DNA of 63,164 nucleotides, the filler included, from Chrysochromulina tobinii (lineage: Eukaryota), in assembly GCA_001275005.1 (NCBI GenBank). It is 6 parts of 6 records of this genome, joined end to end, with 100 filler letters (N's around TTAATTAATTAA, not from the genome) between each part and the next. Parts side by side here need not be neighbours in the genome. Positions count along the whole stretch, not along the records: positions 6,845 to 27,499 come from JWZX01001435.1; positions 27,600 to 39,365 come from JWZX01001436.1; positions 39,466 to 56,262 come from JWZX01001437.1; 3 more parts are not named here. One strand, written 5' to 3'. Both the position numbers and the translations under genes were made by a program. Under the pieces are notes generated by a model that saw only the letters and a program-made list of their open reading frames with translations, was not told the origin of the DNA and searched no databases. Positions 20,969 to 52,900 of the stretch are shown one piece after another; positions within the stretch are counted from its first letter, which is position 1, and each line of letters begins with the position of its first letter.

Positions 20969-23900
20969 TCATTCCACACAGGGCGTGCATGGGCCGCCCA
21001 TGGGGCCGCCCGCACGGGATCGGGAGTCCAACGCCGAGCCGCCCAGTCCCTCCATATTAGGCAACGCCGAGCTGCCCAGCACCTCGACGCCGGCGATGAT
21101 GGCTGTGTTGCGCGGCGACTCGCGCGGGTCGAAGATCTCTCGCATGGTCGCGTTCTCGAGCCCTTGCTCGCGCACAAAGAGGAGCCGATCGAGCAGTACC
21201 TGATGAGGGGCGCAATCAGAAGTCATCAGAGGAGCCATCAGACGCAATCAGGATCGAATTCGAAGCGATCGAGCAGTACCTGATGAGGGGCGCAATCAGC
21301 ATGCACTCAGCAGACGAGCATCCATAATAGGAAGCGGTTCGAGGAGCCGATCGAGCAGCTCACCAAGCGCTCGATCGGGCGCGCGAAGACGCCGCGCAGC
21401 ATGTTGAACGCACGCATCGGGCGCTCGAGGTGCTTGTGCCGTTCCCACAGCGCGCCCATCCGAGCGCGCTCGGGTTCGTCAAACGGCAGCCCGACGCGCG
21501 GGCACGCTAGCCGCGCGTACTCGTCGAAGCTGTCACACAGTGGAATGGAGCCTACGTTGCCGCTCGAGGGTAGCCGAAGGCCTTCGGAGCGCGCCTCTTC
21601 GCCACGTAACTCTTGCAGCCGACACTCGAGCACGGCGCGGTACAGGTGCGCGCGCATGCGACCGGCAGTCTCCTCGAGGGGCGAATAACGAACCTGATCA
21701 GGGACACAATCAGCATGCAATCAGCAGAGTGCGCGCGCAGGCGACCGGCAGTCTCCTCGAGGGGCGAATGACGTAATTGCTTGCTGACCACCCGCAATCA
21801 GCATGCAATCAGCATGCAATCAGCATGCAATCGGCATGCAATCGGCATGCAATCAGCATGCACTCGGCAGAGGCGAATCACGAACCGGCCAGCGCCAGAC
21901 CGCCTGCAGCGACAAGTGCAACGCCACCTCACCCAACTGGAGGCCGAGCCGCCGGCAGTACGCGCTCATCGGCAGGTTGTTTAACTCGGGGTGCGCGGCA
22001 CGAAAGGCCCGCTCGGCCTCATACTTCTCTCGTTCGTAGTTGGAGGCCTCGAGCTTCTCTTGCTCTGGCGGCGGCTGTGAGGGCGGCGGTGGTTGCGAGG
22101 GCGGCGGTTGCGAGCGCGGCGGCTGTGAGGGCGGCGGTTGCGGGGGCGCGCTGACGGCGGGCGGATCTCCGGCGGATCTCCGGCGGATCTCCAGCGGATC
22201 TCCAGCGGATCTCCAGCGGATCTCCGGCGGATCTCCGGCGGATCTCCAGGAGGCGGGCGGATCTCCGGCGGATCTCCAGACGGCGGGCGGATCTCCGGCG
22301 GATCTCCAGGATCGTCCACCTTTCCCTGGATGGAACTGGCTGGTTGCATAAGCCTCGGGCGCTATGGCGGTGGGTGAATCAGCTTGCTGTGAATCAGCTT
22401 GCTGCGAATCAGCTTGCTGTGAATCAGCTGGCTGTGAATCAGCTTGCTTTGAATCAGCTTGCTGTGAATCAGCTTGCTGCGAATCAGCTTGCTGTGAATC
22501 AGCTGGCTGTGAATCAGCTTGCTTTGAATCAGTTTGCTGTGAATCAGCTTGCTGTGAATCAGCTGGCTGTGAAGCAGCTTGCTGTGAATCAGCTTGCTGT
22601 GGAAGCTGATCCCCACTGGCCCCAACTTGCAGTGCCTTGAGGCTGAGATCAAGCCTCGCCTCCCCAGGCAACGCTTCAGTCACTCGATGGTAACAGCATC
22701 CTACGCTCACCACTCCCACACACATCGCCCCCGCCGCTGCCGAGGCGCTCTCAGCGCCCGATACGGCGCCCTGGCGGCGCAGGTGCTGGGCGGACGTGGC
22801 GGCGAGGCGTAGGAGCGTCGGCGACAGGTCCCCACAGGTATGGAGCCCGACGAGTAGGAAGCGACGGTGCGACGGCACACCTGATGAGGGAGCCAATCAG
22901 AGGTCATCAGAGGCAATTAGAGGCAATCAGAGCTCATCTGAAGCGACGGTGCGCCGCGCCGGCTGGGCTCTGGATCGGTCGCCCACCCTTGCTGCTGCCC
23001 CCACCCTCACCTCCAGCGCCTTCGCCGCCTTGAGCGCCTTGAGCGCCGCCTCCAGCGCCGCCCTCGTCACTGCCACGCTCCTCCGCGGCCCGTGCGAGCC
23101 ATTGTCCAATGAGGTCCACTGCGGGCTGGAGGGTTGCCACGAGCCAGGGCACGCTCGCGTCCGGCTCGAGGCGCACGACCAGGTTGGTGAACGATCCGCC
23201 GCCGTACGCCACCAGCGGGCTGGGCTCGCCGCGGCGTGCCGCCTCGTGTGCCGCCTCGAGCGCCGCACTCGCCGCCGCATTGGCCTCCTCCGCACGGGCC
23301 GCCTCGGCGCGTACCTGTGGGGAGGGGGGGCGCCGTAGTGAGCACTTGCATGCGCGAGGAGCGGCCTCGGCGCGTACCTTCTCGCCTCCACCCAGGGCCA
23401 CGTGCGCGGACAGTTCGGCCATCTTGAGCTGCGCCTTGGTTGGCGCCTTCGGGTTGCTTACCCGAAACTTCACGTCGCGCAGCTTCTCTCGCACCATCCA
23501 CGCCCGATGGTGCGCTGCTGCGCAATTGTGCGCCGCGCACTCGATGCCGATCACGTGCAGGCCGTGATGGAAGGCGAGGACGTGCGACAGGTAGCCGTGT
23601 CCGGAGCCGAGATCCACGACGGTGCTGGCGCCGCATCGCGCCGCCTCACGCGCCACCACCGGAGCGAGCCGTAGGACCTCATGCTGCTTCTTCGGTCCCA
23701 TGTTGCGTACGTGCGGGATGCCATCGAGGAGCATGGGGCTCACACGCTCGACGGACGCATCCAGCTCCGCCTGCGTGGGCGGTGCAAGCTGCTGCGCGGT
23801 CAGCACGAGCTCGCGCAGCTCGGGCGGCCACGTGGTGGGTGGGTGCAATCCTGCTGGCAGCTCCTGCATCTCCTCGTCCGACAGCGACAACAGCGCCTCG

Positions 23901-24040
23901 CGCCAGCTTTCGGGCAAGCGCTCCCAGTATGAGTTGCAGCAAAAGTTTGTAAGCCAGCATTGCATGATCCACGCGTGCCGCTTGATCAGGCTGTAGAGCT
24001 GCTGCGCCTCCGCGGCTTCGGCGGACGACGTGCCGTCCAT
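20969..24040 (-). CDS. METTL25: METTL25/RRNAD1-like SAM methyltransferase; exons 24040-23378, 23314-22960, 22880-21886, 21693-21364, 21199-20969
   Basis: [47 protein letters not shown] and FDP..SPRN join in frame once four introns are removed. Confidence 0.88.
21200..21363 (-). other. GT-AG intron (164 nt), repeat-filled, with internal AG|GT
   Basis: Removal gives [13 protein letters not shown]. Confidence 0.85.
21694..21885 (-). other. GT-AG intron (192 nt) with (GCTGATTGCAT)n repeats
   Basis: Removal gives [12 protein letters not shown]; the intron contains in-frame stops. Confidence 0.85.
22161..22310. repeat. 11-nt tandem repeat (GGCGGATCTCC)
   Basis: Directly visible array inside the METTL25-like ORF. 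Confidence 0.9.
22376..22600. repeat. 15-nt tandem repeat (GAATCAGCTTGCTGT; QQADS on minus strand)
   Basis: About 15 units, frame preserving. Confidence 0.95.
22881..22959 (-). other. GC-AG intron (79 nt) with (CTCTGATTGC)n repeats
   Basis: Removal joins [22 protein letters not shown] in frame; donor is G|GCGCGG. Confidence 0.75.
23315..23377 (-). other. GT-AG intron (63 nt, in-frame, stopless)
   Basis: AAG|GTACGC...CCCCACAG|GTACGC; VRAEAA appears twice in the unspliced translation. Confidence 0.8.
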
Positions 24041-24203
24041 GTGGTTGACTGCGTGTGAACGTGAACGGCACCAACTTCACCGGGTCGGAATGTGTGTGTG
24101 AATCGTGTGTTCACGGTCATGCCCTTCCCACGGACCGGAAGGGGGGTCGGTCTCCTCGGAGAAGGCGTCGGCGGCGGTCCCGGCGGCGGTCGAGGCCGCC
24201 GCG

Positions 24204-27044: not shown

Positions 27045-27499
27045 GAGGTCCGAGGGTCCCGGGAGGGTCCCGAGGGTTCCGAGGGTCCCGGGGGGTCCCG
27101 AGGGTCCCAGAGGGTCCAGAGGGTCTTGGTCATATGCTGTGAATTCACAGTAGGTAAGTGTGAATTCACAGCTTGAAGTGTGAATTCACAGCAGAGGGTC
27201 CCGAGGGTCCCGAGGGTCCCGGGGGGTCCCGAGGGTCCCGGAGGGAAGGTCCCGAGGGTCCCGAGGGTCCCGAGGGTCCCGAGGGTCCCGGGAGGCTACG
27301 CCGAGGGTCCCGAGGGTCCCGAGGGTCCCGAGGGTCCCGAGGGTCCCCAGGGAAGGTCCAGAGGGTCCCGAGGGTCCCGAGGGTCCCGAGGGTCCCGAGG
27401 GTCCCGAGGGTCCCGAGGGTCCCGAGGGTCCCGAGGGTCCCGAGGGTCCCGAGGGTCCCGGGAGGGTCCCGAGGGTCCCGAGGGTCCCGGCGGGTCCCG
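27045..27499. repeat. 9-nt satellite (GAGGGTCCC)n with three TGTGAATTCACA palindromes
   Basis: The array runs to the contig end; palindromes lie at about 27138-27190. Confidence 0.95.
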
Positions 27500-28120: not shown

Positions 28121-29520
28121 TCAAGTCTGCATTTTCTCGTGGCGGCATTGGACCTTGTAATCGCCCGGGACCGCCGCGCTGAACGATATCGAAAAGGTCC
28201 CGTTCGAATTGTCGACCACCTTGGCCTCGCTCGCCTTGGAGCCGTACGCCTTCGCGTCCACGCGTACGCCGCCCTGCTCGCACCGATTGCCATACTTGTC
28301 GAGAAGATGGAGGATGACGTCGATGGGAGAATCGATCTCCTGTCGGCTACCCTTGGCCTCAAGGTAGCTCTTGTGATAGACTGGCGGCCCGGGCGCCACC
28401 ATAATATTGATGGGCGCGCCCGTGATCGATTCGCCGAAGAGCTGGATCGATACCCTATGCGCACCCTTGACAGTGAGCTCGCCCGGGCTCACGATCTCGT
28501 ACAGCCCGACCGCGGACGAGCCGGCGGCGACGCTGTGCTTCTTCTTGTCGCCCTCCTTGTGATCCTCGAGCTTCTCGCTCGTCTTCTGGATCAGCGCGAG
28601 CTGCCCGATGGGCGTCTCGAGCATCGAGGTCATATCAGACGCCGATGCGAGGGAGACGAAGTTGTTGAACTCGTCGCAGATCTGGACCTGAGGAGGGAGG
28701 CAATCAAAGCTCATCAGATCTGGACCTTAAGGGCAATCGGACGGAGTTGATGAGGGAGGCAATCGGACGGAGTTGATGAGGGAGGCAATCGGACGGAGTT
28801 GATGAGGGAGGCAATCGGACGGAGTTGATGAGGGAGGCAATCGGACCTTAAGGGCGAGCTTGTCGCCGGCGGTGAGCAGTGCGACGGACGCGCCTCGGAT
28901 CGGACATGCGAACCAATCGCACTAGCTCGCCCCGGTTTCACGTGGATCATCGTCGGGCAGCCTGGAAGGAACTGACGAACCCCAATTGTGTTGGGCTCGC
29001 ACCAGACATGCAACTCAAAGTCGCCGGCCTCTTTGGGCACACGAAGCTCATAATCATTCTGGACCCGTCCCACGAGCCATGGAAGCTCATCGTGTCGAGC
29101 GTCTTGACGAGGTTCGCGCGCTCCTCCTTCTTGAGCAGGGCTGCGCGGCGCTTCTCGTCCACGTGGTCGCCCTTGTTGGGATCGCGCTTCTCCTCGACGT
29201 CCCGTCCGTCTTTGCCGGTCGGCCCGCTGGCACCCTTGAGCAGCGCGGGCACGAGGAGGAGTCCAAAGGATGGCGCATGGCCCGCGAGTACGTCCGGCGC
29301 AACCTCATTCCCATACGAGTCGCAACACTTGGTCTCGACCAAGCTCGCCACGCCCGCGACGGCCTCGCGAGGCGCGAGCAGCGAGCAGCGGCTCACCTCG
29401 AGGTCCTCCCTTCCAAGCGGCGAAAGCGGCTCGCGGCGCTCGCGGCGATCAATCGGGCGATGTCCGCCAAGCTGCGTGAGCGAAAGGAGGCGGCGGCGAA
29501 GGGGTTCGATGAGATGCCAT
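28121..29520 (-). pseudogene. Filamin/ABP280 Ig-repeat gene fragment with several frameshifts
   Basis: Filamin-like AG..D.YGN, DNSNGTFSISF..VPGDYKV and PKEAGDFELHV. Frameshifts at about 29030-29070, at a 5-nt duplication TCGGA (28895-28904), and at about 28140. Confidence 0.75.
28688..28846 (-). other. GT-AG intron (159 nt) with 4 x 26-nt repeat
   Basis: Removal gives LTAGDKLALK|VQICDEFNN. Confidence 0.8.
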
Positions 29521-29635
29521 GAGCACATGGCCATGTTGAGCCATGTCGAGGTCCGAGTCCCGCGCCGGGCCCGCATCGGCTCCCACGCTGCTGCTGCTGC
29601 TGTGAAATTCTAATCATTAGCTGTGAAACACACTG

Positions 29636-30154: not shown

Positions 30155-31740
30155 ATGATCCTTCTCCGCACGATTGCGCTCCTCGCCGCAACGCATGATA
30201 TCGATACATTCGGCGCTCGTGATTCTGACCCATCGGCTACGATGGTCAATGCCGCGGCCTTGACAGCAGCACTGGCGGCGGCCCAGAGTGGTGACACTGT
30301 TCTTGCAAAGGCCGGCAAGATCTACTATATGAACCATGTAACCGCCTCCCAGCTGCGTGGCGTGATCATTCACATTGAGGGCACCGTGCTCGTCGATGAT
30401 AACATCACCGCGTGGGTGAATGACACAACAAGACAAAACTGGTTTGAGATGGTCGATTCTGTCAACGTAACCATCGGCGGCGGCGGCACAGTGGATGGAC
30501 AGGGCATGCCGTGGTGGGACGCGTCCATCACGGGATCGATCAAGGGCGTCGGCGAGAACCGTCCCCACCTATTGCAGCTCACCAATAGCACAGAGCTGAT
30601 CATCGAGAACCTCACACTGCTCAACTCTCCGCGCTTCCACATCCACTTCTCGCAGTGCGCGCGTGTGGTCGTGCGGCACGTGACGATTCGCGTGGACCGC
30701 TTCGCGCAGCGCTCGCTCAAGGCCAAGGCGCACACCAAGCGCCTCGCGGCAGTCGGCCCGCACGTGGCGCCTCTCGCCGAGACAATCGCCCACAGGTGCT
30801 TGCACCTGATTGCACCTGAATGCGCCTGAGCTCGCCTGAGTGCGCCTGGGTGCGCCTGATTGCACCTCTCGCCGAGACGATCGCACGCAGGCTGTACGGC
30901 ATCGAACCGCGAGCTGACGGGACGCTCGCGCCTCGTGAAGACTGGCGGGATTGGCTTCTCGACGAGATCGTGAAGCTGCTGCCGGCGTGGGCGCTGCAGC
31001 CCGAGGACCTCAATACCGACGGCATTGATCCGAACGGGGAAGACTACCACGTGCACGACTGCACGGTCGATAATGACGACGACTCCATCGCAGTCAAGCC
31101 GTCTTCAGGCAAAGATCGCTTCGAGTGCTCGCAGGACATGCTCTTCGAACGACTTACGCTGACGGGCTTTGGCGCGTCGGTCGGCTCAGTTCCGCCCTCC
31201 GCAGACGTCAACTGCGTGCGCAACCTCACGTTCCGTAACCTCTCCATGCCCGGCACTGGCAAGGGGATCTACATTAAGAGCAATCCGAGCTGTGGAGCCG
31301 GCGTCGACCGGTTTGGAAGGACGGTGCAGAAGACGTCCGTGCTCGAGGACATCACCTTTGAGGACGTGAACATCAGCAGGCCCTTTTGGTGGGCGGTCTG
31401 GATTGGGCCTCAGCAGCAACATGAGCCCGGATCGGCACTTGGCGACAAATGCGCCCTCGCCTACCCGTTGCGCGACACGTGCCCCACGCAGGGATGCTCG
31501 ACGTTCTCGAACATCACGCTGCGCCGGGTGACCATTGAAGAGCCTTTGCTCTCACCCGGCGTCATCCTGGGCAACGTGAGCAACCCCATGCGCGGCCTCA
31601 CCCTTGAGGACGTAAACGTCAAATTTGGCCCCAATCCGAAGAGCGGGGCGTGGCCATGGGGGCGCACGTACCTCTGCCAGGCGGCGGCGCTCACGAGCCT
31701 GGGCGGCACCTCGCCGGCGCCCGTGTGCTCGGGCTCGTGA
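30155..31740 (+). CDS. Secreted glycoside hydrolase family 28 (polygalacturonase-like); exons 30155-30795, 30891-31740
   Basis: Signal-like N-terminus, GGGTVDGQG..WW, RP, NSPRFH, NTDGID, DDSIAVK, GIYIKS. Confidence 0.9.
30796..30890 (+). other. GT-AG intron (95 nt) with 10-nt (TGC.CCTGA.) repeats
   Basis: Removal gives ETIAHR-LYGIEP in frame. Confidence 0.88.
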
Positions 31741-35535: not shown

Positions 35536-37240
35536 TTAGGTGCGAAGCGGGGGGTCTGCGGAGACATGCCGTTGACCAAAGGCTGCCGCTCGCCTGTGCG
35601 CCAAGGGACAGAAGGGACAGAGGTGGTCGAGGCGGGCACCGCTCAGTTGATGGAGGAGCGCCGAGGCGAGGTGGCTGTGATCTCGCCGCGATCTCGCGCG
35701 CCCAGGCAAGGCGAGCATGGGCGGCGTGGCGACTGTGGCCAGCGCGAGCGCACCTGCGTGGGGTGACCGATCACCGGCAATCTGGCCCGGGATCGGTCGG
35801 GAGAGGTCGTGTTCCATGCTAATGCTGGTCACGCAGCAACTGCACGCCCAGCGGGTCCAGCGCGAGAAGAAGAAGGTGCAGTCGATCAGCGTGCTCGCGC
35901 AATGATCCATGTTCGAGTTGGCGAGCTGCACGTCGTACCCGATCCTGTCGGAACGCCCCTTGATCGCCAGCTCCAAGTGGATCCTCGTCTGCAGCGCGGG
36001 TGGAATGGGGAGTTCCCCGGTCCCAGTCCAGAGCAGGAGCTGCGAGTGGGGTCGCGAGTCCAGCAGGCGGTCAGAGCACCGCGAGGTCATCTTGCACTCA
36101 GATGCACATTCCACTCAGATGCACTCAGATGCACTCAGATGCACTCAGAGGCACTCAGAGGCACTCAGAGGCACTCAGAGGCACTCAGAGGCACTCAGAG
36201 GCACTCAGAGGCACTCAGAGGCACTCAGAGGCACTCAGAGGCACATTCCACATGCACTCAAGATGGACTCAGATGAGCTCACTACAGCGCTCACCTGCGA
36301 GTCGGGTAAAGCGTCGAGAAGACGATCGAGCACGGCGATCTGACGCTCGGCGAAGCGCACCGACGCCGCAAAAACAACCGAGTTGCCCGGGAGGCTATAT
36401 TCCTTGCACACCTGTGTACGAGAGCCATCGGTCGGGGGTGAGTGCCAGGTCGGACCCTCAGATGGCACTCGGATGGTACTCAGATGACACTCAGATAGCC
36501 ATCAGATGCCTGGGGTGAGTGCCATCTCGGTCAAGGATCACCGATGGGGAGAGGATTGGCAATCTTTCTTTGGGAAGGCTCTTCCGCACCTTGAGCATCT
36601 CGGCGATGTCGGCCTCGGTGTACACTTGCTCAGGCCCGATCGGGCCGACGCTCCAACCGAGCGAGAGCACGGCGTGCGGGCACAGCCGGCGGCAGAGCGG
36701 GATGAAGGCATGCGAGGGCACCGCGGGCGCAAAACGCCTGTTCGGCCCCGGTAGGATGTCGGCGTTTAGCCAGACCGCCTGCCCGTTGGCGTGCAGCTGC
36801 GCCCATCGCTCGGAAAGCAGCTCTAGGCATGGCTCGACGGCGGCGAGCTGCTTGAAGTCGAGCTTCAGGTGTCGCGTGCCATCCGACACGCAGCGCTCGA
36901 GGAACTCGAGAAAACTCAGGTCGGTGTCAGGCACCGCTGCACTGAAGGGTGACGGGTGTGCCATGATGGGCAGGCTACCCGGTCGATCTCCCAGCTTACG
37001 CAGGAGCTGGGCCTGCTCCTCCGTGGCGACCATGATGTCGGCTTCGATCGCGGTGATGTCAGGATTTGCAAGCGCGCGCTCCAGTTTGGAAATCGAGCAA
37101 CAAGAGTGCTCCCAATGCTGCTGCGCACGCGGTCGCGGCGTGTATGGAGGTCCGCAATCGTGTGCCAACGCCAACCCGAGAGAGGCGTGAGACAAACCTC
37201 TCTCGCTTGCCGGCGAGCCCGCATCCGATGATTTGCACAT
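35536..37240 (-). CDS. FAM151/menorin-like (DUF2181) protein; exons 37240-36590, 36411-36295, 36039-35536
   Basis: IEADI, PIMAHP, LKLDFK, WLNADILPGP, LSLGW, YT...I..M, LLLWTG. The C-terminal end is uncertain. Confidence 0.85.
36040..36294 (-). other. GT-AG intron (255 nt) with (CTCTGAGTGC)n repeats
   Basis: CAG|GTGAGC donor; removal gives ALPDSQ|LLLWTG. Confidence 0.85.
36412..36589 (-). other. GT-AG intron (178 nt) with degenerate ATCTGAGTG repeats
   Basis: AAG|GTGCGG...ACACAG|GTG; removal gives EMLK|VCKEY. Confidence 0.8.
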
Positions 37241-39736: not shown

Positions 39737-39942
39737 TATCACGGGGCATGTGTGTGCTCAGTGCGCCAAATCGTCCTATACGGGAGTACTTGTTAGTTTA
39801 GTCAGATTTAGCCAGTAACCACTGTGGGGAATTCCCAGTGGGAAATTAGTGGGTACGTAGACACTTGTGTTTTGTGGTTGGGTGGAGCCATGGTGTCTCT
39901 CATTCTCTTTCTCGCCTCGTTTGGCCCTGCGTCCACGAGATA
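39737..39942 (+). repeat. 5' LTR (TATC...GATA)
   Basis: No differences seen versus the 3' LTR by eye. Confidence 0.95.
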
Positions 39943-42900: not shown

Positions 42901-45900
42901 CGCGTTCGGCTACGGTCTGATGGCTCATCTCGACTTTCACGCCTACTTTGGCCTCTCCGCTGCCTGGCCGCGCCGTTCCCTGCCGGCCGCCCCACCATTC
43001 TGCAGCTCGGAGGACGCCGCCGTCGACTCTATGGCATCCTTGATGATCGTAAACTCCGTCGACAAACTGTACCGTGTGACTGATGCATCCCCGAAGCTCG
43101 AGATTGAGACTGCTGATGGCCTCGTCCCCGTCAAGGCCATCGGCGTTGCCCTCGCGTACTTGCGCGTTGGCCGTGCCTGGGAGTGCTACGAGATACCCGA
43201 TGTCATGGTGCTCGAGAACTGCACCTTCACGCTCTATTCAACTCGGGTCATGTACGCGCTCTTCGGCTTCAAGCACGCGTTCGAGTCCGGCGTCATATCT
43301 GTCCCTGGTGCTCACGACATTGCTATCTATGACACCGGCGCGGCCTACGTGACTCCGATCGCATTTGTCCCGCACGGCTCACCTCGGCCGGAGGTGGTAC
43401 ATCGCGCCACCGACCGCGCTCTCGATGCGTTCCGCGCCGCTTGTGCCGGGCGCCCCGCCGCACGCCTCGCCGAACGCAGTGCCGGCACTTCCCAGGCTGT
43501 CCTGCATCAGCGCCTCGGCTTCCCATACCACGAGCAGTGGAAGCGCGTGCCTGCTTCCACCATCGACCATGGTTTGCCTCCCAACGCTCAGGCCACGCCT
43601 GATCTGCCCACGCGCGATGCTGTCTCGCGAGGTCGTGCACGCGCCCTACCATTCCTGCGCAAGCCATTGGAAGACGTGCGGCAGCCTCCACCCGCGGCGG
43701 TGATTTATATGGACTTCGCCGGTCCCCTCCTGGCCAGCATCTTCCATCGATACACCTGCTACGTCTGCTGCGTCGACGCCGGCTCGGGCTATGGGCGTCT
43801 TTACCCTGCCCACCATATGACGGCCCTTGTTGCCGCTGGCGCTCTTGAGTCGTACTCGGCTGAGCTTGCCTCGCTCATGGGCTTTCACGGCGGTTTCAAG
43901 CCCCTCGTTGTTCGCTCCGACCAAGGCAGCGCTTTTGTCTCCTTTTATTTCCGCGAGTTTCTCTCCGCCCGCCAGATTCATCAATCGCTGGCATGCACTT
44001 ACACGCCGCAACAGAACTCACATGCCGAGCGTTTCTTCGGGGTTGTGTTCGCAACCGCTCGCGTCCTGCTGGCTGCCGCCAATCTACCGCCGATTTTCCA
44101 TCCTTTCGCTCTCCAGACGGCCGCGTGGATTCACAACCGCCTCCCGCGACCCTCCCGCGGTAATGATTCGCCGTACTATACCCTCACCCGTTCGCTGCCT
44201 TCACTGGCGATGCTCTATTGTTTTGGATGCCTGGCTGCCGTCGTCATCCCCGTTCCCCGCCGCGAGGGCGATCGTCACTTTGCCGATCGTGGCGAGCACG
44301 CCATCTACCTCGGTCCTTCTGAGGTCAGCCCTGGCCACGTGGTTTACTTGCTTTCTTCTCGTCGCATCACCACTGTGGCCAAAATCCATCCGTGGGAGGA
44401 TCAGTTCCCTGGCATTGCCGGCGAGCGGTACTCGTGGTTCACTGATGATACCCCGCCGCCGCCGTCAGAGGGGCCCGCCGTCCCGACCGCCGATGTACCG
44501 ACCGCCGCCCGTGACGGCCCCACGAGTCACGGCCCTACGGCCATCCCTGACGTTCCCGACGAGGCACCTACGCCTACCTCTGCCACCACCCCAACTCCGC
44601 ATCCGCCTCCGCTTCCACCTGCTGTATCGGTACCTACGCCCCCGGCAGTTGGGTCCGGAGGGGCTGTAGCGCCAGGAGGGGCGCCTGCCACGTCAGCAGT
44701 TGGGCCCGGAGGGGTCACGCCAGGAGGGGCGCCTGCCACGTCAGGAGGGGCCACGTCAGGAGGGGCTGCCCCACAGCGATCAGCCCGACCCAGAGGTGAG
44801 CTCAAGAAACTCGAGACCAAGACGACCGTGAGCCCACCGGATGCCGCCGGAGCTACTCCTCGCCGCGCAGGTTCTCGAGTTGGATCGTCTGTGCGTTATG
44901 GCCAGATCGCCATGCATTCTGCGATGAGCCTCTTCGCTCTTACCGCCGTGGCCGCCGCCAACCTGCGCGCCCCGATTTCACTTGGTTTCGCCTTCACTTC
45001 CACCATCTCGGCAGTGGACGAGGCCTTCGGCGGCGAACCCCTCGATAGCCAGCCCGACTCTTGGCTTGTCGATGCAGCCGCTCTCGCTGCTACGGCGGCT
45101 ACCCTGACCATCACTGCCGATCTGGGCGAGCTGGACGTCCCTAAGTCTTTTCGTCAGGCTATGCGCAGCCCGCAGCGTGACTATTGGCGTGAGGCCATCG
45201 CCAAGGAGCTGGCTGGACTGCTCGCCCTTGAGACGTGGGAGATGGTACCTGCTAGCTCGATGCCTCCTGGTGCCAACCTGATGCATTGTCACTACGTGTT
45301 CGCAGTCAAGCGTAAGGCGGATGGATCCATCGAGAAGTTCAAGGCGAGGCTCGTCGCCGACGGTAACACCCAGAAGTACGGCGTTGACTTTGACCGGGTG
45401 TTCGCAACTGTGGTCAAGACATCCACAATTCGCCTCGTTCTTCTGCTTGCCGCGGCTCGGGATTATAATCTCTCCTCCATTGATATTCGGCAGGCCTACT
45501 TACAGAGTCTCCTTGACCCCAACGTGCCACTTTACATGCGCCCGCCCCCGGACGTGTTCCCTTTCGACCAGCATGGGAACCCGTTGGTGTGTAAGTTGCG
45601 GCGATCACTTTACGGCCTCAAGCAGGCTGGCCGGGAATGGGCCGCTCTCTTCTCCTCCTTCCTCATTTCGTGGGGCATGACGCGATCGACCATCGATCCC
45701 TGCCTCTACGTTTTCCGGGCCGCAGAGTCCATCCTCTGGGTCTGTGTCTACGTTGATGACGCCCTCATCGCTGACAACGACCCCGAGCTTCGCGCCCGCT
45801 TTGTCACCGACCTATCCGCACGCTTCCCTACTGAGGACAAGGGAGAGCTCAAATGGATTCTGAGTGTAGCGATTGCGCGGGATCGCAAGGCTCGCACCCT

Positions 45901-46750
45901 CTCGATGTCGCAGGAGCTATACGTCGCCGACTTGATCACCAAGTTCGGCTCCTTCCTCGACGCGTCTGTCACTCGCACTTTTGACACGCCCATGGAGGAG
46001 GGATCGGTGCTCTCGGCCTCGGATCAACCTCAGATCGGATCCGAGGCTCACGCGGCTATGGCGGCTTCCCGCGACGTTTATATGTCGCTCGTTGGTGGGT
46101 ACTTGTGGCTCGCGAACATGACTCACTTCCATCTGGCTTACCCGGCCGGCCAGTTGGCACGTTTCCTCACCAACCCGGGGTTGCCGCACTACCGCGCCGC
46201 TCTGCGTTTGCTCGCCTACCTCCAATCTGTGGGGTCCCGGCCGCTTGTGTTCGCCCCCAACAGTGTGCGAGGCTTGGACACCTACGTCGACTCGAGTTGG
46301 GCGACTCGCTTCTCGGTGAGCGGCTGCCTGATCTTCTATCACGGGTGCTTGTTCCACTGGTTCTCGAAGATGCAAAAGTCTGTCTCCTTAAGTTCCGCTG
46401 AGGCCGAGTATTTTGGTGCGATGATGGCGGCCAGGGATTTGATTTTCGTGCGTGATCTGCTCATCGAGCTCGCCATCCCGCTTGAGGGCCCCAGTGTGAT
46501 GTGGTCCGATTCCAAGTCTGCTGTCGACATGTCTCGTGATCCGGTGGCGTTCAAAATGACCAAGCATATCTTGCGTGCGGCGGAGTTCCTTCGCGATCTC
46601 GTAGCTCGTCTGGTCATTGAAGTACGACACTTACCGGGGCGTGTGATGATTGCCGACCTTCTGACTAAGGCTGTGGCCCGGGTCGTATACCACGAGCTTC
46701 TTCGTCTCTTTGACGTCTACGCCGCCACAGGTGTGGTGTGCCCCGATTAA
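39890..46750 (+). CDS. Copia Gag-Pol polyprotein with ~570-aa hydrophobic N-terminal extension
   Basis: CLRCGRLGHTRRTC zinc knuckle; integrase MDFAGP / RSDQGSAF / PQQNSHAER; RT KARLVA, LYGLKQA, YVDD; RNase H DSSW, SSAEAEY, ADLLTK. The first ATG (GCCATGG) lies inside the 5' LTR. Confidence 0.93.
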   Translation: MVSLILFLASFGPASTRYGFPSGNSSAAPVDVFATITPVSSEDVVFPPPHCADLWNLSTPNAEETQSSFSLGFVDPQCGMFASRGFPPHHAMPDCRCRLDGVSGWLPRQRHFAAGPHSPAEAAVVLTSSSCGHGLAATLHWFERAGQPVQDPSLAACRRVFLEITVYLAMHPHRVYDVGVMFMLLAWFMIQPRAWARLVLLISLGTLSAATHLFNLVLQSCLHDGRERGSARTGRGRWVDHNHALGMQGASGAWAIWRMAVVTTFLPLALLLLAPLVAANYVIATLIRLARLSLAWLPALSLAGVLVLLMVAYYVATTLAALIVDMVLFTFLVTQIVGFIALASVDSVTTPLIWFLIECVTLAGTITIATTRRLATTLACLASAFDHWNALRDPAIAELAGALHRGWVGKKRRPTRDNRHDIRRALRDLTAPARLDKLVQTHRYVMMVFGDGDPSVPHRRQVASVYARVALIVLTIITARACRFGSRAIKRTEGFTLNVGLAITVRLLRTRDCLVAHACFMSGRSGIARRALDSLLVATYLRFRSPMAVMMPRMRPLWILAMLPLVSSAGDENKRVPSFSGERIDFTAWFMLFSAYVAYKLVSAAPLIAGTRPRPPAAPSPTMGRVAPEPPAPPAPILATDGSTTNQTEIDAANAARLAWMNTAQVVLNAAEIKEANDAREKWANDNTQLYGLLVQAMPAWLVTSLYNSHLNDGVAAIEYLRKAFDANSGDGGDHAAHLARLQSRTIDARSDISEADLRRQFDMMMSESAAIQRTGNSPPSEATMIAFYDNALPIAYTTMRQHARRARHTTLLAHHMDIMSQVRAEANSRAPAPNAFAASIAPAGATPLKPATNADADKTCLRCGRLGHTRRTCRQAKAPCTHCGADHLPDFCPKGTGGRRRELSDVLRGVLDRDVQRGSGPAAKHGRKPPTYAAAAAQASAPAPASASPPTPSPPAAAPSIAPTAPAVPWQQPTPTAHAAAAQAASIQADAQSAANAYAAALRAFGYGLMAHLDFHAYFGLSAAWPRRSLPAAPPFCSSEDAAVDSMASLMIVNSVDKLYRVTDASPKLEIETADGLVPVKAIGVALAYLRVGRAWECYEIPDVMVLENCTFTLYSTRVMYALFGFKHAFESGVISVPGAHDIAIYDTGAAYVTPIAFVPHGSPRPEVVHRATDRALDAFRAACAGRPAARLAERSAGTSQAVLHQRLGFPYHEQWKRVPASTIDHGLPPNAQATPDLPTRDAVSRGRARALPFLRKPLEDVRQPPPAAVIYMDFAGPLLASIFHRYTCYVCCVDAGSGYGRLYPAHHMTALVAAGALESYSAELASLMGFHGGFKPLVVRSDQGSAFVSFYFREFLSARQIHQSLACTYTPQQNSHAERFFGVVFATARVLLAAANLPPIFHPFALQTAAWIHNRLPRPSRGNDSPYYTLTRSLPSLAMLYCFGCLAAVVIPVPRREGDRHFADRGEHAIYLGPSEVSPGHVVYLLSSRRITTVAKIHPWEDQFPGIAGERYSWFTDDTPPPPSEGPAVPTADVPTAARDGPTSHGPTAIPDVPDEAPTPTSATTPTPHPPPLPPAVSVPTPPAVGSGGAVAPGGAPATSAVGPGGVTPGGAPATSGGATSGGAAPQRSARPRGELKKLETKTTVSPPDAAGATPRRAGSRVGSSVRYGQIAMHSAMSLFALTAVAAANLRAPISLGFAFTSTISAVDEAFGGEPLDSQPDSWLVDAAALAATAATLTITADLGELDVPKSFRQAMRSPQRDYWREAIAKELAGLLALETWEMVPASSMPPGANLMHCHYVFAVKRKADGSIEKFKARLVADGNTQKYGVDFDRVFATVVKTSTIRLVLLLAAARDYNLSSIDIRQAYLQSLLDPNVPLYMRPPPDVFPFDQHGNPLVCKLRRSLYGLKQAGREWAALFSSFLISWGMTRSTIDPCLYVFRAAESILWVCVYVDDALIADNDPELRARFVTDLSARFPTEDKGELKWILSVAIARDRKARTLSMSQELYVADLITKFGSFLDASVTRTFDTPMEEGSVLSASDQPQIGSEAHAAMAASRDVYMSLVGGYLWLANMTHFHLAYPAGQLARFLTNPGLPHYRAALRLLAYLQSVGSRPLVFAPNSVRGLDTYVDSSWATRFSVSGCLIFYHGCLFHWFSKMQKSVSLSSAEAEYFGAMMAARDLIFVRDLLIELAIPLEGPSVMWSDSKSAVDMSRDPVAFKMTKHILRAAEFLRDLVARLVIEVRHLPGRVMIADLLTKAVARVVYHELLRLFDVYAATGVVCPD
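39943..39960 (+). promoter_or_regulatory. Primer-binding site, 18 nt
   Basis: TGGCTTCCCTTCCGGGAA directly follows the LTR. Its complement UUCCCGG-AAGGGAA-G-CCA has the form of a tRNA 3' end. Confidence 0.8.
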
Positions 46751-46790
46751 TATGTACGGTCGCATGGCTTTCGCCGCAACCGTGAGGGGC

Positions 46791-46996
46791 TATCACGGGG
46801 CATGTGTGTGCTCAGTGCGCCAAATCGTCCTATACGGGAGTACTTGTTAGTTTAGTCAGATTTAGCCAGTAACCACTGTGGGGAATTCCCAGTGGGAAAT
46901 TAGTGGGTACGTAGACACTTGTGTTTTGTGGTTGGGTGGAGCCATGGTGTCTCTCATTCTCTTTCTCGCCTCGTTTGGCCCTGCGTCCACGAGATA
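46791..46996 (+). repeat. 3' LTR, preceded by short purine tract GAGGGG
   Basis: Direct repeat of 39737-39942. Confidence 0.95.
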
Positions 46997-49900
46997 CGCA
47001 CGAGCGTGCTCCCACATGGCGATGGCGGCGCTCACGTGCACGTTGAGCGAGCGCAGCAGCCCGCGCTGTGGGATCTCGACACACTGATCGACTTCAGCCA
47101 GCAGCGATGCGGGCACGCCCGTTCCCTCCGCGCCCAGCAGCAGCACCGTCTTCTCGAGCGCACGCGGTGATCTCCCACGCGACCGGCGAGTGGCTGCGGC
47201 CTGTGTGAGCAGCTCATTCGTAAAGGTGAGGCGGCGGGCGGCCCCGGCGGGGAGGCTCCTGACGAGATTGAGCGCGTCATCCTTTTTCATGCCGGCCATA
47301 CTCTGGCCATTGACTGCAAGCAACGTCATGCCTATGATGATGCCCTTTTGCTGTGCCAGCGTGCCATCCACCACGTCGTTCACCACGATGGCACCGCTTG
47401 CGTGATCGCCTAGCCCGAGCCCAATGTGCTTCCCAGGCTCGAAGTCGTACTCATACTGAGAGGCGAGCTCGTACGGATGAGTGGTATTCACACGGATGGT
47501 ATTCACACCTCGCTCGTACGGATGAGTGGTCGACGCCTGCTCAGCGCCGTCGTGAGCACCCAGCATCGAGTAGTACTCTTGCAGAGGAACGGATCCCGCC
47601 GCCTGCTCCAGCGCCACGATGCGCCATCCTGCCGCTCGGCGGGCCCGCAAGTACCTGGACAGCTCCGCCGGCTTGACCTCTTCCATCGGCAGCCAGCGCT
47701 CGGCGCCCAAGCTCAACCCTTTGAAAGCCTCGTGGCTGGCAAGTCGCTTGTCGGGGAGCACGAGCGCTGCCGCGCCGAAGATCTCGGCGCTCCGGCAGAT
47801 GCCGCCGAGATTGGTTGGCTTGTCGAGGAGCGAGGCGACTACGATGAGCTCGTGCGCGCGCCGCTTGGACTGCACCGCCGTGGTGCGCAGGTCGGCGAGC
47901 TGTGCATGCATGGGGGCGAAGGAGTCGGCGTGCGAGACAGCCCCCTCGTCTTCAAGCGCGCCGCTCGCCACTGCTTCTGCTGCCGCAGTCGCATCCTCCT
48001 CAGATTCGGCGCCTGATTGCCTCCGATTGCGCCTGGTTGCCTCCTCATCCGCCTCCTCGTCCGCGGCCGCCGCTGCGCTGAGCACATCAAACACAAGAGG
48101 CTCGACATTCCACCAGCCATGACCGCCGAGCGCCGTCTTGCGCTGTGCCACTTGGTGAGTGGCGCGGCTGGTGGCGGTGGCCGCAGGGCTGGCTGCGGCG
48201 GGGGCGAGGAGGGGCTCGATGCCAGCTAGAGCTGACGAAACTGGAGCTGACGAAACGCTGCTGGCGGTTACTGGAGCTGACGAAACGCTGCTGGTGGTTG
48301 TGCCACGCAAGGCAGCGAGCTCTCCCCGTAGGTACTCCGTCAGGGCCAGCCGGCGCTCTGACGCTTCCTTCTGAAGCGCGGCGGTCTCCTCCTCCTTACT
48401 CGCGTGCACCAGCGCCGACATCTGGCGCCCCAAACGCTCTTGGGCGGACACGGGGGCAGACTCGCCATCTCCCGCGCCCGCCGCCAAGGCCGCGCCTCGC
48501 GCGTCGTACAAGGCTGCCGAGGCGGACCGCGAGTGCGCCGGCAGCCAGAGCAGCGGGTCTATGGCGGCAGTGGCGGCGACAATCTGCGGCTGCGTGGCGA
48601 AGAAGGTACCGAGGGTCGCTAGAAGCGCCGGTGGTGCCAGAGCGCCGTCGCGAGCGCCGTCGCCATCCGTGGCAGACGGAGCGACGGCGGGGGTGCCGAC
48701 GTCCGCGCGCGCTGCAGCAGCCGGGGTGCGCCTCATGGACGCAGCCGCATCGAGATCGTCCGAAATCGTGGCGTCGGGGGTCAGAGCAGCCAGGCGAGAG
48801 AGCACCCCGATCGACAGCAGCCGCGCGGTATGGAATGTGCACGTTGCCCAGCCGAGAAGGTGCGGCAGCACTGTGTTCATGGCAGCCTGGCGCGAGTCCG
48901 GCGGCAGCGCGACGAGGGCCGCGCCAACGATCAGCACGGCGGAGGCAGCGGCGTCGCGGGATAGGGTAGGATCAGCCACGAAGTTGCAAAGGACCGTTGG
49001 GGCCGTCCGCGCGTCGCTCAGCACGAGCGCCACTGCAAAGCTCTCCATGTACTGCCTGACACGAGGTAACGGCTTCTCGGACAGCAAGCGCCACACGCAG
49101 CTGGCCGCCGCCTGCGCCGGTGCCCCAAGCTGTGGAAGCCACGGGGCTAGTAAGCTGAGTGCTTGCCAGGAGCGTAAGCAGCGACGTGCTCCCTGCGTCT
49201 GTGGTAGATACCACTTGGGGAAGCTTGCATCGGGTGAGGCGACGGAGTCGAGGAGCAAAGCGGTGACGGCGTTGAGGAGGGCGAGTGCGCCGTCGTTGCT
49301 CGCGCCTGCGGCCAACGACGCCTCCTCTCGCAGCGGCAGCTCCAAAAGCAGCCGTAGTGCGAGCGCCCTCACGCGATGCGCCGCGGCACGGCGCTGGGCG
49401 TCCGCACCGCCGGCCATGAGGGCGTCCAGCAACGCCTGGATACCCTCATCCTCCGCAGAGGCGCACCCATCGACCACAGGAGCGGCGGCGGCGCTGGTGG
49501 TAGAGGCGCGACTGCACGTGGCGGCAGAAGACTGCGAGTCTGCAGGCACGGCAAGGGCCAGATCGGCACGGCTCACGCTCATGACTGCCCGTGTGGACAG
49601 CCGCGGCGCAAGGTCGTCATCCAACGTGGAGAGCAGCGCGGTGCTGCCCACCGGCAAGGCCGCATCCCCATGCAGCAAGAGCTCGTGTATGCGAGAGGCC
49701 CATGGGAGGCAAGCGCGGGGCTGCTCCAGAACGGCGTCGCACAGACGGGAGGCGGCGAGCTGTGCGGCAAACGGACGGGCAGCGCCGAGGCCGTGTAGGA
49801 AGTCGAAAGCTCCGAAGCTCTCAGCTTGAAGGCCAGTGCAGTGCAGCACGGGCACGCTGAGGAGGGCGTTGGCAACGGCTGCACAGAGGCTCGGCTGCAG

Positions 49901-52900
49901 AGCGGTCGATCGCACCAGACGAAGACTCTCCAAGCAGGCGCGGTGGAGAGCGCGGACGTGCGAGACCGTTGACGAGACCGACGAGACCGCGCCGTCCGTA
50001 GCGGCCGCGCCATCTGATTGCCTCTGATTGCCTCTGATTTCCTCTGAGTGCGAGACCACGCCGTCCGTAGCGGCCGCACCATCAACGACAGAGTGGCGGA
50101 GGGCGATGCGGATCAATGGCCCAGCACAGCGGAGAAGCGCATGCAGCGCCTCGGCATCGCCCGACGACTGCTTCAGAGCGGCCGCGCAGGATGCCAGCCA
50201 CGTCTGATGCCGTCGATCCACAAGCTCACTGTCGCGTACCACAGCCGGCGCGATGCCTTCGCGCACGCGTATAGGTGGCGGGGGCGATGATCGGCCGCTG
50301 ACGGTCGCCACTGACGGTGCATCGCCTGCAGCGTCCAGCAGGGCGGCTAGCGCAGCCCATTGCGCCACCTCCGAGCGGTATCGCAGTCGCAAGTCGACCC
50401 CGTTGCCATCGCCGTCCATGCTTGCGAAGCGTCCCGCGCCCTCCGCGCAAGCCGCCAGCATTGTCTCTCGCGCCGACTGCATGGGCTTAGTAAGGAGTGG
50501 ATGCACGGCGACGATGCCTGGTGCGCCGTCGTGAGCAAGTTCCAGCGCCCTCGCACCATACATCCCGGCGCGCACCACGGCGGAGAGAGCGTCAGCGGCC
50601 ATCAGTCGCACGCGCGGCGCTTGGGGTCCGGCCGCGCTCGCAAGTTCGGCACTCAGGCCTTGGAGCAGCTGCTCGCCCACAAACGTGACGATCGAGCGAA
50701 CCTCCGGCACGGCCGCTGTGCATGCAGCCAGGGCGCCGGAGCAGTGGACCACTCGAGCACAGAGCCAGTCAGTCTGATCAGGTGCACCGACCAGGGATGA
50801 GTCGGAACGGCCTGTGCGTGCTTCGGAAAGGGCGTTCTCGACGACGCCGCAGCAACCTTCAGCACAGCCAGAGAGCATATTGATCACCACCGAGCGCCAA
50901 GCTGGCTCGTCCGCTGCGGCAGCGCCGTCAATGAGCGCATGCAGCAGCACTAGAAGCCGCGGCGCGTGCAGCGGGTGCAGATAGGCTCGCGTGTGCACGT
51001 TCACCAGCTGCGCGCACAGTGGTCCCAGTGCAAGGGCCACACGCTGCGCGGTCGGACACAAGTCGCACGCCGCGCGGAGCGTCTCTGCCTCCTCTGCACT
51101 GTCGCTGAGATCGGAGGCGGCAGGCACGAACGGCTTCGGCTGAGCGGTGATAGGAGATGTGATGGCTGCTGTGATGGCCGCCGTGATGGCCCCGCCCTGG
51201 CTCGCCCCTTTTCGGCGATTGGTATAGCGCTCCAAGTATTCTTGGACCGCTTCAGCAACCTCCGCCTCCAGCCACGCTCCGCCATCTGCACGTCTCGGGC
51301 GCTCAAGCCACTGGCGCACTCGCTCAACGGTCCGTTGCGGCAGTCGAGATGCCGCGGGCACGCTGCGTACGAACGCCATAATAGGCAACAGCCCCAGAGA
51401 TGACGCGTCACCGAGCGCGAGCAGCGCCTTCAGACCGACACGCCACAGGCGCGCCTGCGCCACCCGCCCGTGCGAGCGGCCCGCCTGCTGCATCACGTCA
51501 CGCAGCGCGTAAAAGCCCCCCTGGCTCAGGACGCCGGGAGCTTCGGGCGTCGAGGCGAGGGCTGTGAGCAGGTGCTCGCACGCATGCACCTTAGGCGAGT
51601 CTTGGCAGGCGCGTAGCAGTGACTCCACCCACGTGCCCGCAGCCTCGACGCCGGCGCGTCGCGCCAAGTAGGACACGTACAGAGGCAGCGCGTCTCGGAC
51701 GGCGGCCGCCAAGGGTGAGAGAGGTCCGGTCGAGTCGCCCCTCCCAGCACCACGATAGTTGCCGTCACCAGCGTCGTCGCCGCTATTCCCGCCGCCGCCG
51801 ACGCCGCCGCCGCCGCCGCCGCTGAGGTCCACCCGCCACGGCGCATGCGAGTGCAGGAGCAGCGGCAGCAAGTGCTCGGCCATGAAGCGCGCGGGCGGCA
51901 CCACGGCGTGCGCCTCTGCAGCTGCAGAGCCAGTGGTTTCGGAGGGCTCTGGAGGTTCGGGCGCCTCGAGGGCAGCCGCGACATGCTCCAGGAGGGTGAG
52001 AGCCGCCCAGTAGCGCACGGCGACATTAGCATGGCCAAAGGCCCTGCGTAGCAGCAGCTCGACCCACGGCCACGAGGGAGGCGGCTCCAGGGCCTCGCGC
52101 GAAGATGAGGGCGAGGTCACTGCTGCATCGCTGTCCGCTGAGGCATTTGTCCAAGTACCGGTAGAAGTACCGGCCGGAGGTGCGACATCGCCTAACCACC
52201 ACGAAGGCTGTGTCGGCCACACAGGCTGGATGAGATGGACGTCGTACGCGGCCTCGAGAGAGCCATAGACGGCCAGGAAGGTCTCCCACGCCGCCACGTC
52301 CGCAGCCTGCGCGTGGGCGGTGCTGACGATCAAGGCCGCCGCCTTTGCCTCCTGGGAGGTTCGATTCGCACCGTCGCGGCGGAGGGCATGCAAGAGGAGC
52401 GCGTTCGGAGTGGGTGGCGCACTCGCCATCGGCGCCGCTTCGAGAGCGGCGCGCCACGCGCCACGCAGCTGCTCATGCAGGGCCGCGGCGGTGGTGAAAC
52501 AATGGAGACGAACGGGTTCTGATTCTGACGCGCACCCCCGCGCCAGCCACCCCCACACCGCGACTGCGCTCGCCTCTACATCCAGATCGGAGCTGCACAG
52601 CAGCGAGAGTGCCGCCGCCCGCGCCGCACGGAGCGGCGACAATGAGAGCTGGGCTCCCGCAGCAGCGAGCGCAGCGCTGGCTTCCGCCGTGGGTGATAGC
52701 CGGTGCAGTCGCAGCGCAAGGCTTGCTGCCGCCACCGCCGTCATACTGCTCGCGCCGCTCTTGGCGCCTTGGCACGCGATCTCATCTGTGGTGGTGGGCT
52801 GCAGCGCACTCATCGCCGCTGTCCACAGTCCAGGGATCGCATCTGCAGTGACGAGCTTCGCAATAGCTTCGCAAGTCATGTCGAGGACCACAGCTGATAC

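What the first reader, a model, noticed from the sequence alone, without database searches (positions are those of the whole stretch)
21200..50083. Candidate intron-generating system: repeat insertion plus variable-length exon duplication that supplies a splice site
Seen: 7 of 8 reconstructed introns, in four unrelated genes on two contigs, carry a copy of the adjacent exon edge next to a short-period repeat or short core. In five (21200, 21694, 22881, 23315, 28688) the copy is of the downstream exon start and sits at or near the donor. In two (30796, 36040) it is of the upstream exon end and supplies the AG. Duplications range from 11 to 45 nt. Four introns end in the same 20-nt motif YTGATTG-NNN-CCCT-SMTCAG, and the repeat unit CTGATTGC looks like a multimerised branch-point (CTRAY) motif. 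Established: described introners are mostly DNA transposons with fixed short TSDs and TIRs. No TIRs are visible here. Inference: a staggered nick is filled by reiterative templated synthesis (TPRT- or telomerase-like, or break repair) from a short template, producing ready-to-splice introns. I cannot tell from here whether this is already described for haptophytes.
Basis: partly seen in the sequence, partly recalled or inferred. Interest (0 to 1): 0.9.

Follow-up and report, generated by a model that had tools for sequence, protein, structure and literature searches.

The report
New introns copied from old introns
In a Chrysochromulina alga many introns are a scrap of typical intron sequence joined to a 10-60-base copy of the neighbouring exon, several are spliced in RNA and some are present in one gene copy but absent in a near-identical one; they are likely made when DNA break repair copies pieces of existing introns into genes, which would be a source of new introns needing no transposon.

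Summary
Observation holds. Seven of nine introns in four window genes carry an exon-edge copy. RNA contigs confirm five of those seven junctions; one rests on 1 of 4 runs because a paralog confounds the rest. In independent DNA, 42 of 95 acceptor-motif introns carry a 10-53 nt copy of the next exon's start (controls 0/95, 2/468); an unrelated second intron core does too (18/26 vs 2/26). Empty sites exist: METTL25 alleles about 99% identical lack introns 22881 and 23315 but read into a repeat insert at a site empty in the window; a paralog lacks 28688; relatives lack the antisense in-frame insert at 50015. Both junctions show excess microhomology with the repeats; inserts are heterogeneous and about 95% sense. 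So gain is recent, but a single reiterated template (telomerase-like) is not supported, and no mobilising enzyme was found. Best model (0.5): staggered-break repair with templated insertion from existing intron sequence, filtered by splicing. Main rival (0.25): retrotransposon-driven reverse transcription of intron RNA. Closest known: Daphnia break-repair intron gain and introners. Not found in ten literature searches, nor earlier in this scan.

The parts
20969..24040 (-). METTL25-like methyltransferase gene, 857 aa when spliced, host of four duplication-bearing introns
   Evidence: Pfam Methyltransf_32 on both sides of the introns; spliced product aligns with homologs
21200..21363 (-). 164-nt intron of two serial units: exon-start copy (21341-21363, 18 nt exact after GTGAG; inner 14-nt copy 21266-21279), repeats, acceptor motif
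   Evidence: RNA contig joins 21197|21362 with no other letters
21694..21885 (-). 192-nt intron; 16-nt exon-start copy at the donor (21870-21885), 11-mer array, inner 45-nt copy (21729-21773), acceptor motif
   Evidence: RNA contig joins 21687|21880
22881..22959 (-). 79-nt GC-AG intron; 20-nt exon-start copy (22940-22959), 10-mer repeats, acceptor motif; absent in B alleles
   Evidence: splicing inferred from the stop in the intron and the conserved LHTCGDL motif downstream, not seen in RNA rows
23315..23377 (-). 63-nt in-frame intron of the second core family (GCATGCAAGTGCTCAC..CCCCACAG), perfect 16-nt direct repeat including AG|GT; absent in B alleles
   Evidence: splicing not seen in RNA rows
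22698..22712 (-). Empty site (VSVGCCYH) where B alleles read into a repeat insert
   Evidence: 14 of 15 listed cluster-1 proteins end VSVGCCCRALIASDEL*; DNA of that allele not seen
28688..28846 (-). 159-nt intron in a frameshifted partial duplicate of a filamin-repeat gene; 26-nt tandem array plus an inner 20-nt copy of the joined exon ends (28715-28734)
   Evidence: X16 matches the window copy; intact paralog reads straight through
30796..30890 (+). 95-nt intron in GH28 gene; 10-mer repeats then a 26-nt copy of the upstream exon end (30865-30890) supplying the AG
   Evidence: RNA joint in 1 of 4 runs; present in 15 of 15 listed close alleles; three homologs at 46-68% run through the site
36040..36294 (-). 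255-nt intron in Menorin gene; 10-mer array; 13-nt copy of the upstream exon end supplying the AG (weakest case)
   Evidence: RNA joint in 4 of 4 runs; p 0.0035
36412..36589 (-). 178-nt intron with degenerate repeats and no clear exon duplication
   Evidence: RNA joint in 3 of 4 runs
35594..35753 (-).
   Evidence: RNA joint in 3 of 4 runs
49982..50083 (+). 33-nt duplication (49982-50014, 50051-50083) around a 36-nt CTGATTGC array, antisense and in frame in the TARBP1/SpoU-like ORF
   Evidence: 5 of 5 relatives covering the site have one copy and no insert; splicing untested
48010..48045 (+). Second antisense in-frame repeat tract in the same ORF, 1 to at least 3 tandem copies in relatives

Best explanation
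These introns are recent insertions flanked by 10-60 nt exon duplications, likely made by host repair of staggered breaks that copies a piece of existing intron sequence into the gap. Shown: structure X-insert-X; splicing of five; empty sites; inserts drawn from at least two unrelated intron cores; excess microhomology between X and the insert at both junctions; about 95% sense orientation; serial repeats of the event at one site. Inferred: the 3' end of X anneals by 2-7 nt to intron sequence (DNA or nascent RNA, often nearby and on the same strand), extends, then re-anneals at the start of X, as in polymerase-theta end joining or template switching. Selection then keeps products that splice cleanly: donor from X with acceptor from the insert, the reverse, or AG|GT inside X with the insert supplying branch-point-like CTGAT motifs and length. 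A few unspliceable products survive in frame. Every new intron adds template, so the process would feed itself without a dedicated element.
For: Duplication excess 42/95 vs 0/95 and 2/468. Second core 18/26 vs 2/26. Duplications 12-57 nt, median 22, 34 of 67 perfect, 51 mismatches in 1657 nt. Microhomology: left mean 2.8 vs 1.7 (n=60), right 3.4 vs 1.5 (n=27, inserts without the acceptor motif). Classes among 100 duplication-flanked arrays: 39 acceptor motif in insert, 14 AG|GY inside the copy, 9 donor at or after the left copy's end, 24 serial, 14 no splice pair found. Next exon starts GT or GC in 81 of 95. Clean single units are 63-93 nt in 26 of 30, and duplication and insert lengths are inversely related (rho -0.42, p 0.02). 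Empty sites. The empty 22881 site reads GASH as in outgroups and the intron's 5' copy, while the spliced window form reads GVPSH, favouring gain over loss. Same-strand neighbours share repeat variants more than background (0.045 vs 0.021 at 250-1000 nt); opposite-strand ones do not. Tandem duplications with microhomology and occasional in-cis templated inserts are described for TMEJ at 3'-protruding breaks (PMC5730883, passages).
Against: No enzyme or break source was identified. The acceptor-motif class has a sharp constant 3' end (loose ends pile at 22878-22879), as a mobile element would. The strong sense bias and the use of intron sequence as filler are not what unbiased repair predicts; they need cis or transcription coupling or heavy selection. 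The neighbour-similarity effect is modest (13% of pairs above the background 95th percentile) and the pairs are not independent. The microhomology measure is slightly inflated because duplications were extended maximally. Empty alleles were read from protein calls, not DNA. B alleles lack two adjacent introns, which cDNA-mediated loss also produces. About half of the motif introns show no copy scoring 10 or more.
Confidence: 0.5

Rival explanations
1. Target-primed reverse transcription by a non-LTR retrotransposon copies excised intron or pre-mRNA fragments into staggered nicks (a non-autonomous retro-introner).
For: Variable-length duplications; constant 3' end at the AG with a variable 5' end in the commonest class; heterogeneous templates; priming microhomology. 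Non-LTR-derived introners exist (5% of classified examples, PMC12130899 passages).
Against: No poly-A or tail seen in the listed inserts. At least 23 of 100 spliceable cases lack the acceptor motif and end inside the repeats. The 22881 insertion adds a codon beyond the AG (one case). No RT in the 46 longest ORFs of the loci. The window's only Pfam RT is a Copia-type LTR element with no CTGATTGC array. Trans TPRT would not itself give 95% sense orientation.
Confidence: 0.25
2. The introns are old; duplications arise secondarily by slippage or template switching across existing splice sites, and empty sites are intron losses.
For: Serial units and donor-spanning tandem copies show remodelling of existing introns (24 of 100; 25 of 60 copies preceded by intron sequence). 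Arrays vary between strains. Introns 21200 and 21694 are shared with a roughly 97% lake relative. 30796 is in 15 of 15 close alleles. P0029 lacks 23315 while matching the A allele, so it is a loss or a part-spliced RNA.
Against: Needs reciprocal losses in one gene. GASH versus GVPSH polarity. The antisense exonic insert at 50015 has no prior intron. The intron sits in a frameshifted duplicate whose intact paralog lacks it. No excess mismatch at donor positions 2-5 that would mark a retained old donor (8/168 vs 35/631). Distant GH28 homologs run through the site and break off elsewhere.
Confidence: 0.13
3. A dedicated element or enzyme (DNA-transposon introner, or telomerase-like reiteration of one short RNA template) writes the inserts.
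For: High-copy, sharply bounded acceptor motif; 10-nt periodicity in 740 of 1036 units; introner families are reported in marine Chrysochromulina MAGs (PMC9860276).
Against: Duplication length is not fixed (12-57 nt). No end-to-end similarity or TIRs; the motif's 5-bp hairpin is no better than shuffles (z -1.35 to +0.54). Many unit variants and two unrelated cores.
Confidence: 0.07

Closest known systems
Intron gain by staggered double-strand-break repair, Daphnia pulex (PMC4202315, passages)
   Same: [quoted passage not shown]
   Different: Daphnia repeats are 4-12 bp (33 cases). Here they are 10-57 nt, and the filler is recognisable, high-copy intron sequence carrying splice signals.
Introners, incl. 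Chrysochromulina sp. family with 4-bp TSD and no TIR (PMC9860276 passages, section 15, supplement rows; PMC12130899 and PMC11282704 passages)
   Same: Genome-scale recent intron gain; a splice site co-opted from a target duplication; shared sequence among introns.
   Different: No fixed TSD length, no end-to-end similarity (one end is a copy of the local exon), several splice-site arrangements, microhomology junctions. The published search requires similarity at both ends. C. tobinii appears in the stored supplement only in the genome list (file cut when stored).
Tandem genomic duplication of AGGT-containing exon (PMC3443670, passages)
   Same: The class with AG|GY inside the duplicated segment (14 of 100).
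   Different: Here a foreign intron-derived spacer lies between the copies, letting 12-57 nt duplications reach intron length.
Polymerase-theta end joining: tandem duplications with templated inserts (PMC5730883, passages)
   Same: Variable duplication, microhomology, templated filler, repeated rounds at one site.
   Different: Shown in mouse cells at induced breaks, where cNHEJ makes most duplications. No strand or intron-template bias in the passages seen; not tested in haptophytes.
Fungal introner-like elements and sister stwintrons; intron transposition (PMC8469720 passages, PMC12403724 abstract)
   Same: New introns derived from existing intron sequence.
   Different: Those integrate seamlessly as whole introns with no flanking duplication.

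Membership tests
DNA-transposon introner | Fixed short TSD | tested here: not met
   12-57 nt, continuous distribution
DNA-transposon introner | Terminal inverted repeats | tested here: not met
   None in the printed inserts; motif hairpin not above shuffles
Introner (any class) | Sequence similarity between copies at both intron ends | tested here: not met
   One end is a locus-specific exon copy
Introner (any class) | Recent gain at new positions, spliced | tested here: met
Non-LTR retroposon (TPRT) | Variable-length TSD with one constant and one truncated end | tested here: inconclusive
   Met for the acceptor-motif class (39 of 100), not for the motif-less classes
Non-LTR retroposon (TPRT) | Autonomous LINE or Penelope partner sharing the terminus | tested here: inconclusive
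   None in the 46 longest of 262 candidate ORFs in about 0.7 Mb; no whole genome held
Telomerase-like reiteration | Homogeneous repeat from one template | tested here: not met
   Commonest unit 119 of 1036; many variants; second unrelated core
Break-repair intron gain (Daphnia type) | Direct repeat of adjacent exon at the far end of a polymorphic new intron | tested here: met
TMEJ / template-switch insertion | Microhomology at junctions with templated filler | tested here: met
   (statistical; junctions defined without empty-site DNA)
TMEJ / template-switch insertion | Dependence on POLQ | not testable with these tools
   Needs genetics
Fungal ILE / intron transposition | Seamless insertion of a whole intron without duplication | tested here: not met
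   Duplications and partial introns

The most novel reading that the evidence does not exclude
Chrysochromulina has a self-feeding, element-free intron factory: transcription-coupled break repair uses the gene's own or a neighbour's intron sequence, possibly nascent RNA, as filler, so introns beget thousands of new introns. It is active now, segregates in lake populations, and is invisible to introner searches because one end of every product is a copy of the local exon.
Probability: 0.4. Interest if true: 0.9.

Novelty: new variant of a known kind. Interest (0 to 1): 0.8.

Why it matters
Where new spliceosomal introns come from is a long-standing question, and recent genome-scale answers are transposons. 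This would be a genome-scale route that fuses three mechanisms usually listed separately (break repair, tandem duplication, intron transposition) and needs no element. It occurs in a small-genome alga with reciprocal intron presence/absence between gene copies about 99% identical, so rate, template and enzyme can be tested directly. It also means current introner surveys miss a class by design, and that automatic gene calls in these algae read through such introns.

Tried and rejected
The motif scan of viral contigs found 0. The 11-mer array at 22152-22319 was considered as an intron and rejected: the frame is open and an RNA contig runs into it. My first 130-nt version of intron 36412 was wrong. 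The hairpin or mini-TIR reading of the 20-nt motif was rejected. The retained-old-donor model found no support. The test for arrays in true intergenic DNA was inconclusive because the crude coding model mislabels intron-dense genes. All-against-all comparison of loci gave three strain pairs at 91-97% that showed repeat-number change but no empty site. The lake run X21 has the acceptor ends of 21200 and 21694, so no empty site there. P0029 and the eukaryotic gene models (P0007, P0091, P0095, P0101, P0102, P0110, P0111) were not counted as empty alleles. Summed contig depth over the intron cores (up to 57,780 against about 40) was used only as a sign of high copy number, not as a count. The lack of RNA joints for 22881 and 23315 is no evidence either way (82 joints and 3414 pieces were not shown). 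The Emiliania genome paper, recalled to report strand-biased 10-11 bp repeats in introns, was not held. Earlier scan findings were two other intron families or nothing.
Full report
Setting. The window is six contigs joined by N linkers. It is from Chrysochromulina tobinii or a very close relative: a protein that its source names C. tobinii Ctob_014443 is identical over 194 aa to the ORF at 28995-29576, and the neighbouring GH28 clusters with Ctob_014444. No whole genome was held.

Observation. I rebuilt the introns from sequence and laid RNA contigs on them. One 929-nt contig from run X14 joins 21197|21362 and 21687|21880 with no other letters, skipping exactly 164 and 192 nt (1 of 2 RNA runs). 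For 28688, three of the four contigs carry an extra base at 28894 that belongs to an intact paralog, so only X16 shows splicing of the window's own copy. Introns 22881 and 23315 were not confirmed in the rows shown. Against random window exon sequence, 6 of 9 introns have an exon-edge copy at p<=0.0035. 22881 has an exact 14-nt copy that this test missed by its offset limit and one search found. 35594 and 36412 have none. The tally is 7 of 9.

Independent test. After removing duplicates and non-terminal motifs, 95 of 300 raw sites remained. Of these, 42 have a copy of the next exon's start (score 10 or more, 10-53 nt) within 300 nt upstream, against 0 of 95 for exon-interior sequence and 2 of 468 for swapped exons. 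The next exon begins GT in 70 and GC in 11 of 95. With a broader motif and the window included, 60 of 121 have a copy; 55 of the 60 start GT or GC and 25 are preceded by more intron, that is, serial units. A second core, non-repetitive and seen in intron 23315, behaves the same: 18 of 26 against 2 of 26, serial sites and the window's site included. Chimeras of the two cores occur (L010, L063).

Anatomy. Of 320 repeat arrays in 780 kb, flanking direct repeats scoring 12 or more were found for 53 of 116 with the acceptor motif and 71 of 204 without, against 13 of 957 controls. Removing repeats that were themselves array-derived left 100: 39 with the acceptor motif in the insert, 14 with AG|GY inside the duplication, 9 with the donor at or after the end of the left copy and AG from the right copy, 24 serial, and 14 with no splice pair found. 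In 67 non-serial cases the duplication is 12-57 nt (median 22), 34 are perfect and mismatch is 51 in 1657 nt. The end of the left copy overlaps known repeat sequence by a mean of 2.8 nt against 1.7 (n=60). The start of the right copy overlaps by 3.4 against 1.5 (n=27 inserts without the motif). Maximal extension of the duplication inflates this by roughly a third of a base (my estimate), less than the excess. Units are mostly 10-mers (740 of 1036) but heterogeneous. Orientation is sense in 105 of 112 classifiable arrays of 320 and 134 of 141 of 268 by a second crude method. Thirty clean single units are 63-93 nt in 26 cases, with duplication and insert lengths inversely related, as expected if selection keeps products of spliceable size. 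Arrays on the same strand within 8 kb share variants somewhat more than background; opposite-strand arrays do not (modest, non-independent pairs).

Empty sites. Gene callers run straight through these introns on assembled contigs, so protein clusters record presence and absence. For METTL25, full-length members match the window's first exon at 218-221 of 220-221 aa. All 15 listed members of cluster 2 (of 21) read through intron 23315 and stop in intron 22881, like the window, and 7 of 7 in cluster 3 have 23315. Fourteen of 15 listed in cluster 1 (of 21; contigs to 19 kb; one is a fragment) lack 22881; the 13 of them that cover 23315 lack it too. All 14 end in VSVGCCCRALIASDEL, a read-through into a repeat insert at a site that is empty in the window and in 12 more distant homologs bar one unresolved. 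The fifteenth, P0029, lacks only 23315 and may be a loss or a part-spliced RNA. The empty 22881 site reads GASH, like outgroups and like the intron's own 5' copy, whereas the window's spliced form reads GVPSH. Loss through cDNA would have left GVPSH, so gain is favoured, unless an upstream donor is used or the exon changed later. For 28688, nine metagenome-called members (of 15 listed, 50 in the cluster; contigs to 73 kb) read straight through, and the window's copy is a frameshifted partial duplicate. For 50015, five of five relatives covering the site have one copy of the duplicated segment and no insert; this insert is antisense and in frame, so the process does not need a prior intron. Against this, 30796 and 36412 are present in all 15 listed close alleles each, and 21200 and 21694 are shared with a lake relative. 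Three GH28 homologs at 46-68% run through the 30796 site and break off elsewhere. All of this is read from proteins; the DNA of the empty alleles was not seen.

Mechanism. Variable duplication, microhomology at both ends, mixed templates and repeated rounds at one site match repair of staggered breaks with templated insertion. PMC5730883 (passages) describes such products for polymerase theta, though cNHEJ made most duplications there. I put this at 0.5. The steps from break to insert are inferred, and whether the template is DNA or nascent RNA is open. Reverse transcription of intron RNA by a non-LTR element (0.25) explains the constant AG end of the commonest class but less well the motif-less classes and the strand bias. 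No such element was seen in the 46 longest of 262 candidate ORFs. The window's Copia-type element carries no CTGATTGC array. Remodelling of old introns certainly contributes to serial units and repeat number but fails as the main account (0.13). One reiterated template or a DNA transposon is unlikely (0.07).

Known work. Daphnia new introns have 4-12 bp exon-edge repeats attributed to staggered breaks (PMC4202315, passages). Introners in marine Chrysochromulina have a 4-bp TSD (PMC9860276, passages). That survey needs similarity at both intron ends (section 15, read whole) and its stored supplement, which was cut, names C. tobinii only in the genome list. PMC12130899 does not mention haptophytes in its main text (term search); its datasets were not read and could bear on novelty. 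PMC11782384 (abstract) reports 4-30 bp direct repeats near splice sites generally. PMC3443670 and PMC11282704 (passages) list the classical mechanisms; PMC8469720 (passages) and PMC12403724 (abstract) describe seamless fungal intron propagation. The C. tobin genome paper gives 59 Mb, 16,777 genes and about one intron per gene and does not discuss these repeats in the passages found (PMC4580454); PMC12480563 (passages) did not either. That Emiliania introns hold strand-biased 10-11 bp repeats is recalled, not read. Ten searches found no description of this system; the library lacks most subscription papers, including the C. parva and Emiliania genome papers as far as I could find.

Verdict. The feature is real, widespread in the sampled DNA and recent. 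It works like break-repair intron gain, extended to long duplications and self-supplied intron filler, and it is not a member of the described introner classes by the features tested. New variant of a known kind; interest 0.8; 0.9 if the element-free self-templating reading (probability 0.4) holds.

Noticed in passing
window 39740-46996: Full-length Copia-type LTR element (ORF 39812-46750; RVT_2, rve) sitting at the extreme 3' end of the TARBP1/SpoU-like gene; the protein calls of relatives end just there.
   Followed up: partly
window 56363-60148: 1261-codon minus-strand ORF with no Pfam hit; by recalled motifs it resembles a DIRS-type retroelement pol followed by a recombinase-like ORF. Unverified.
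   Followed up: partly
window 22160-22307 and 22374-22601: In-frame exonic 11-mer and 15-mer tandem arrays inside METTL25; the 11-mer region is transcribed unspliced at its 3' edge.
   Followed up: partly
window 28121-29576: Frameshifted partial duplicate (shifts near 29038 and 28894) of an intact filamin-repeat gene; RNA contigs of both forms are present.
   Followed up: partly
window 32545-34640 and 37967-39365; 6845-8344 and 9284-11302: Two near-identical intron-less EF-hand gene copies and two copies of a phosphodiesterase-like gene (label recalled from motifs), one copy of each pair truncated or frameshifted.
   Followed up: no
window 27049-27499 and 60249-61934: 9-mer GAGGGTCCC array at a contig end, and a 258-nt coding tandem repeat in a Pro-rich protein.
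   Followed up: no
L050:3-3599 (-): SF3B1 gene of this alga was fetched by chance; its branch-point pocket could be examined against the CTGAT repeats.
   Followed up: no
window 142-4056 (-): 1304-codon ORF with DUF7869, probably a transposon-like gene.
   Followed up: no
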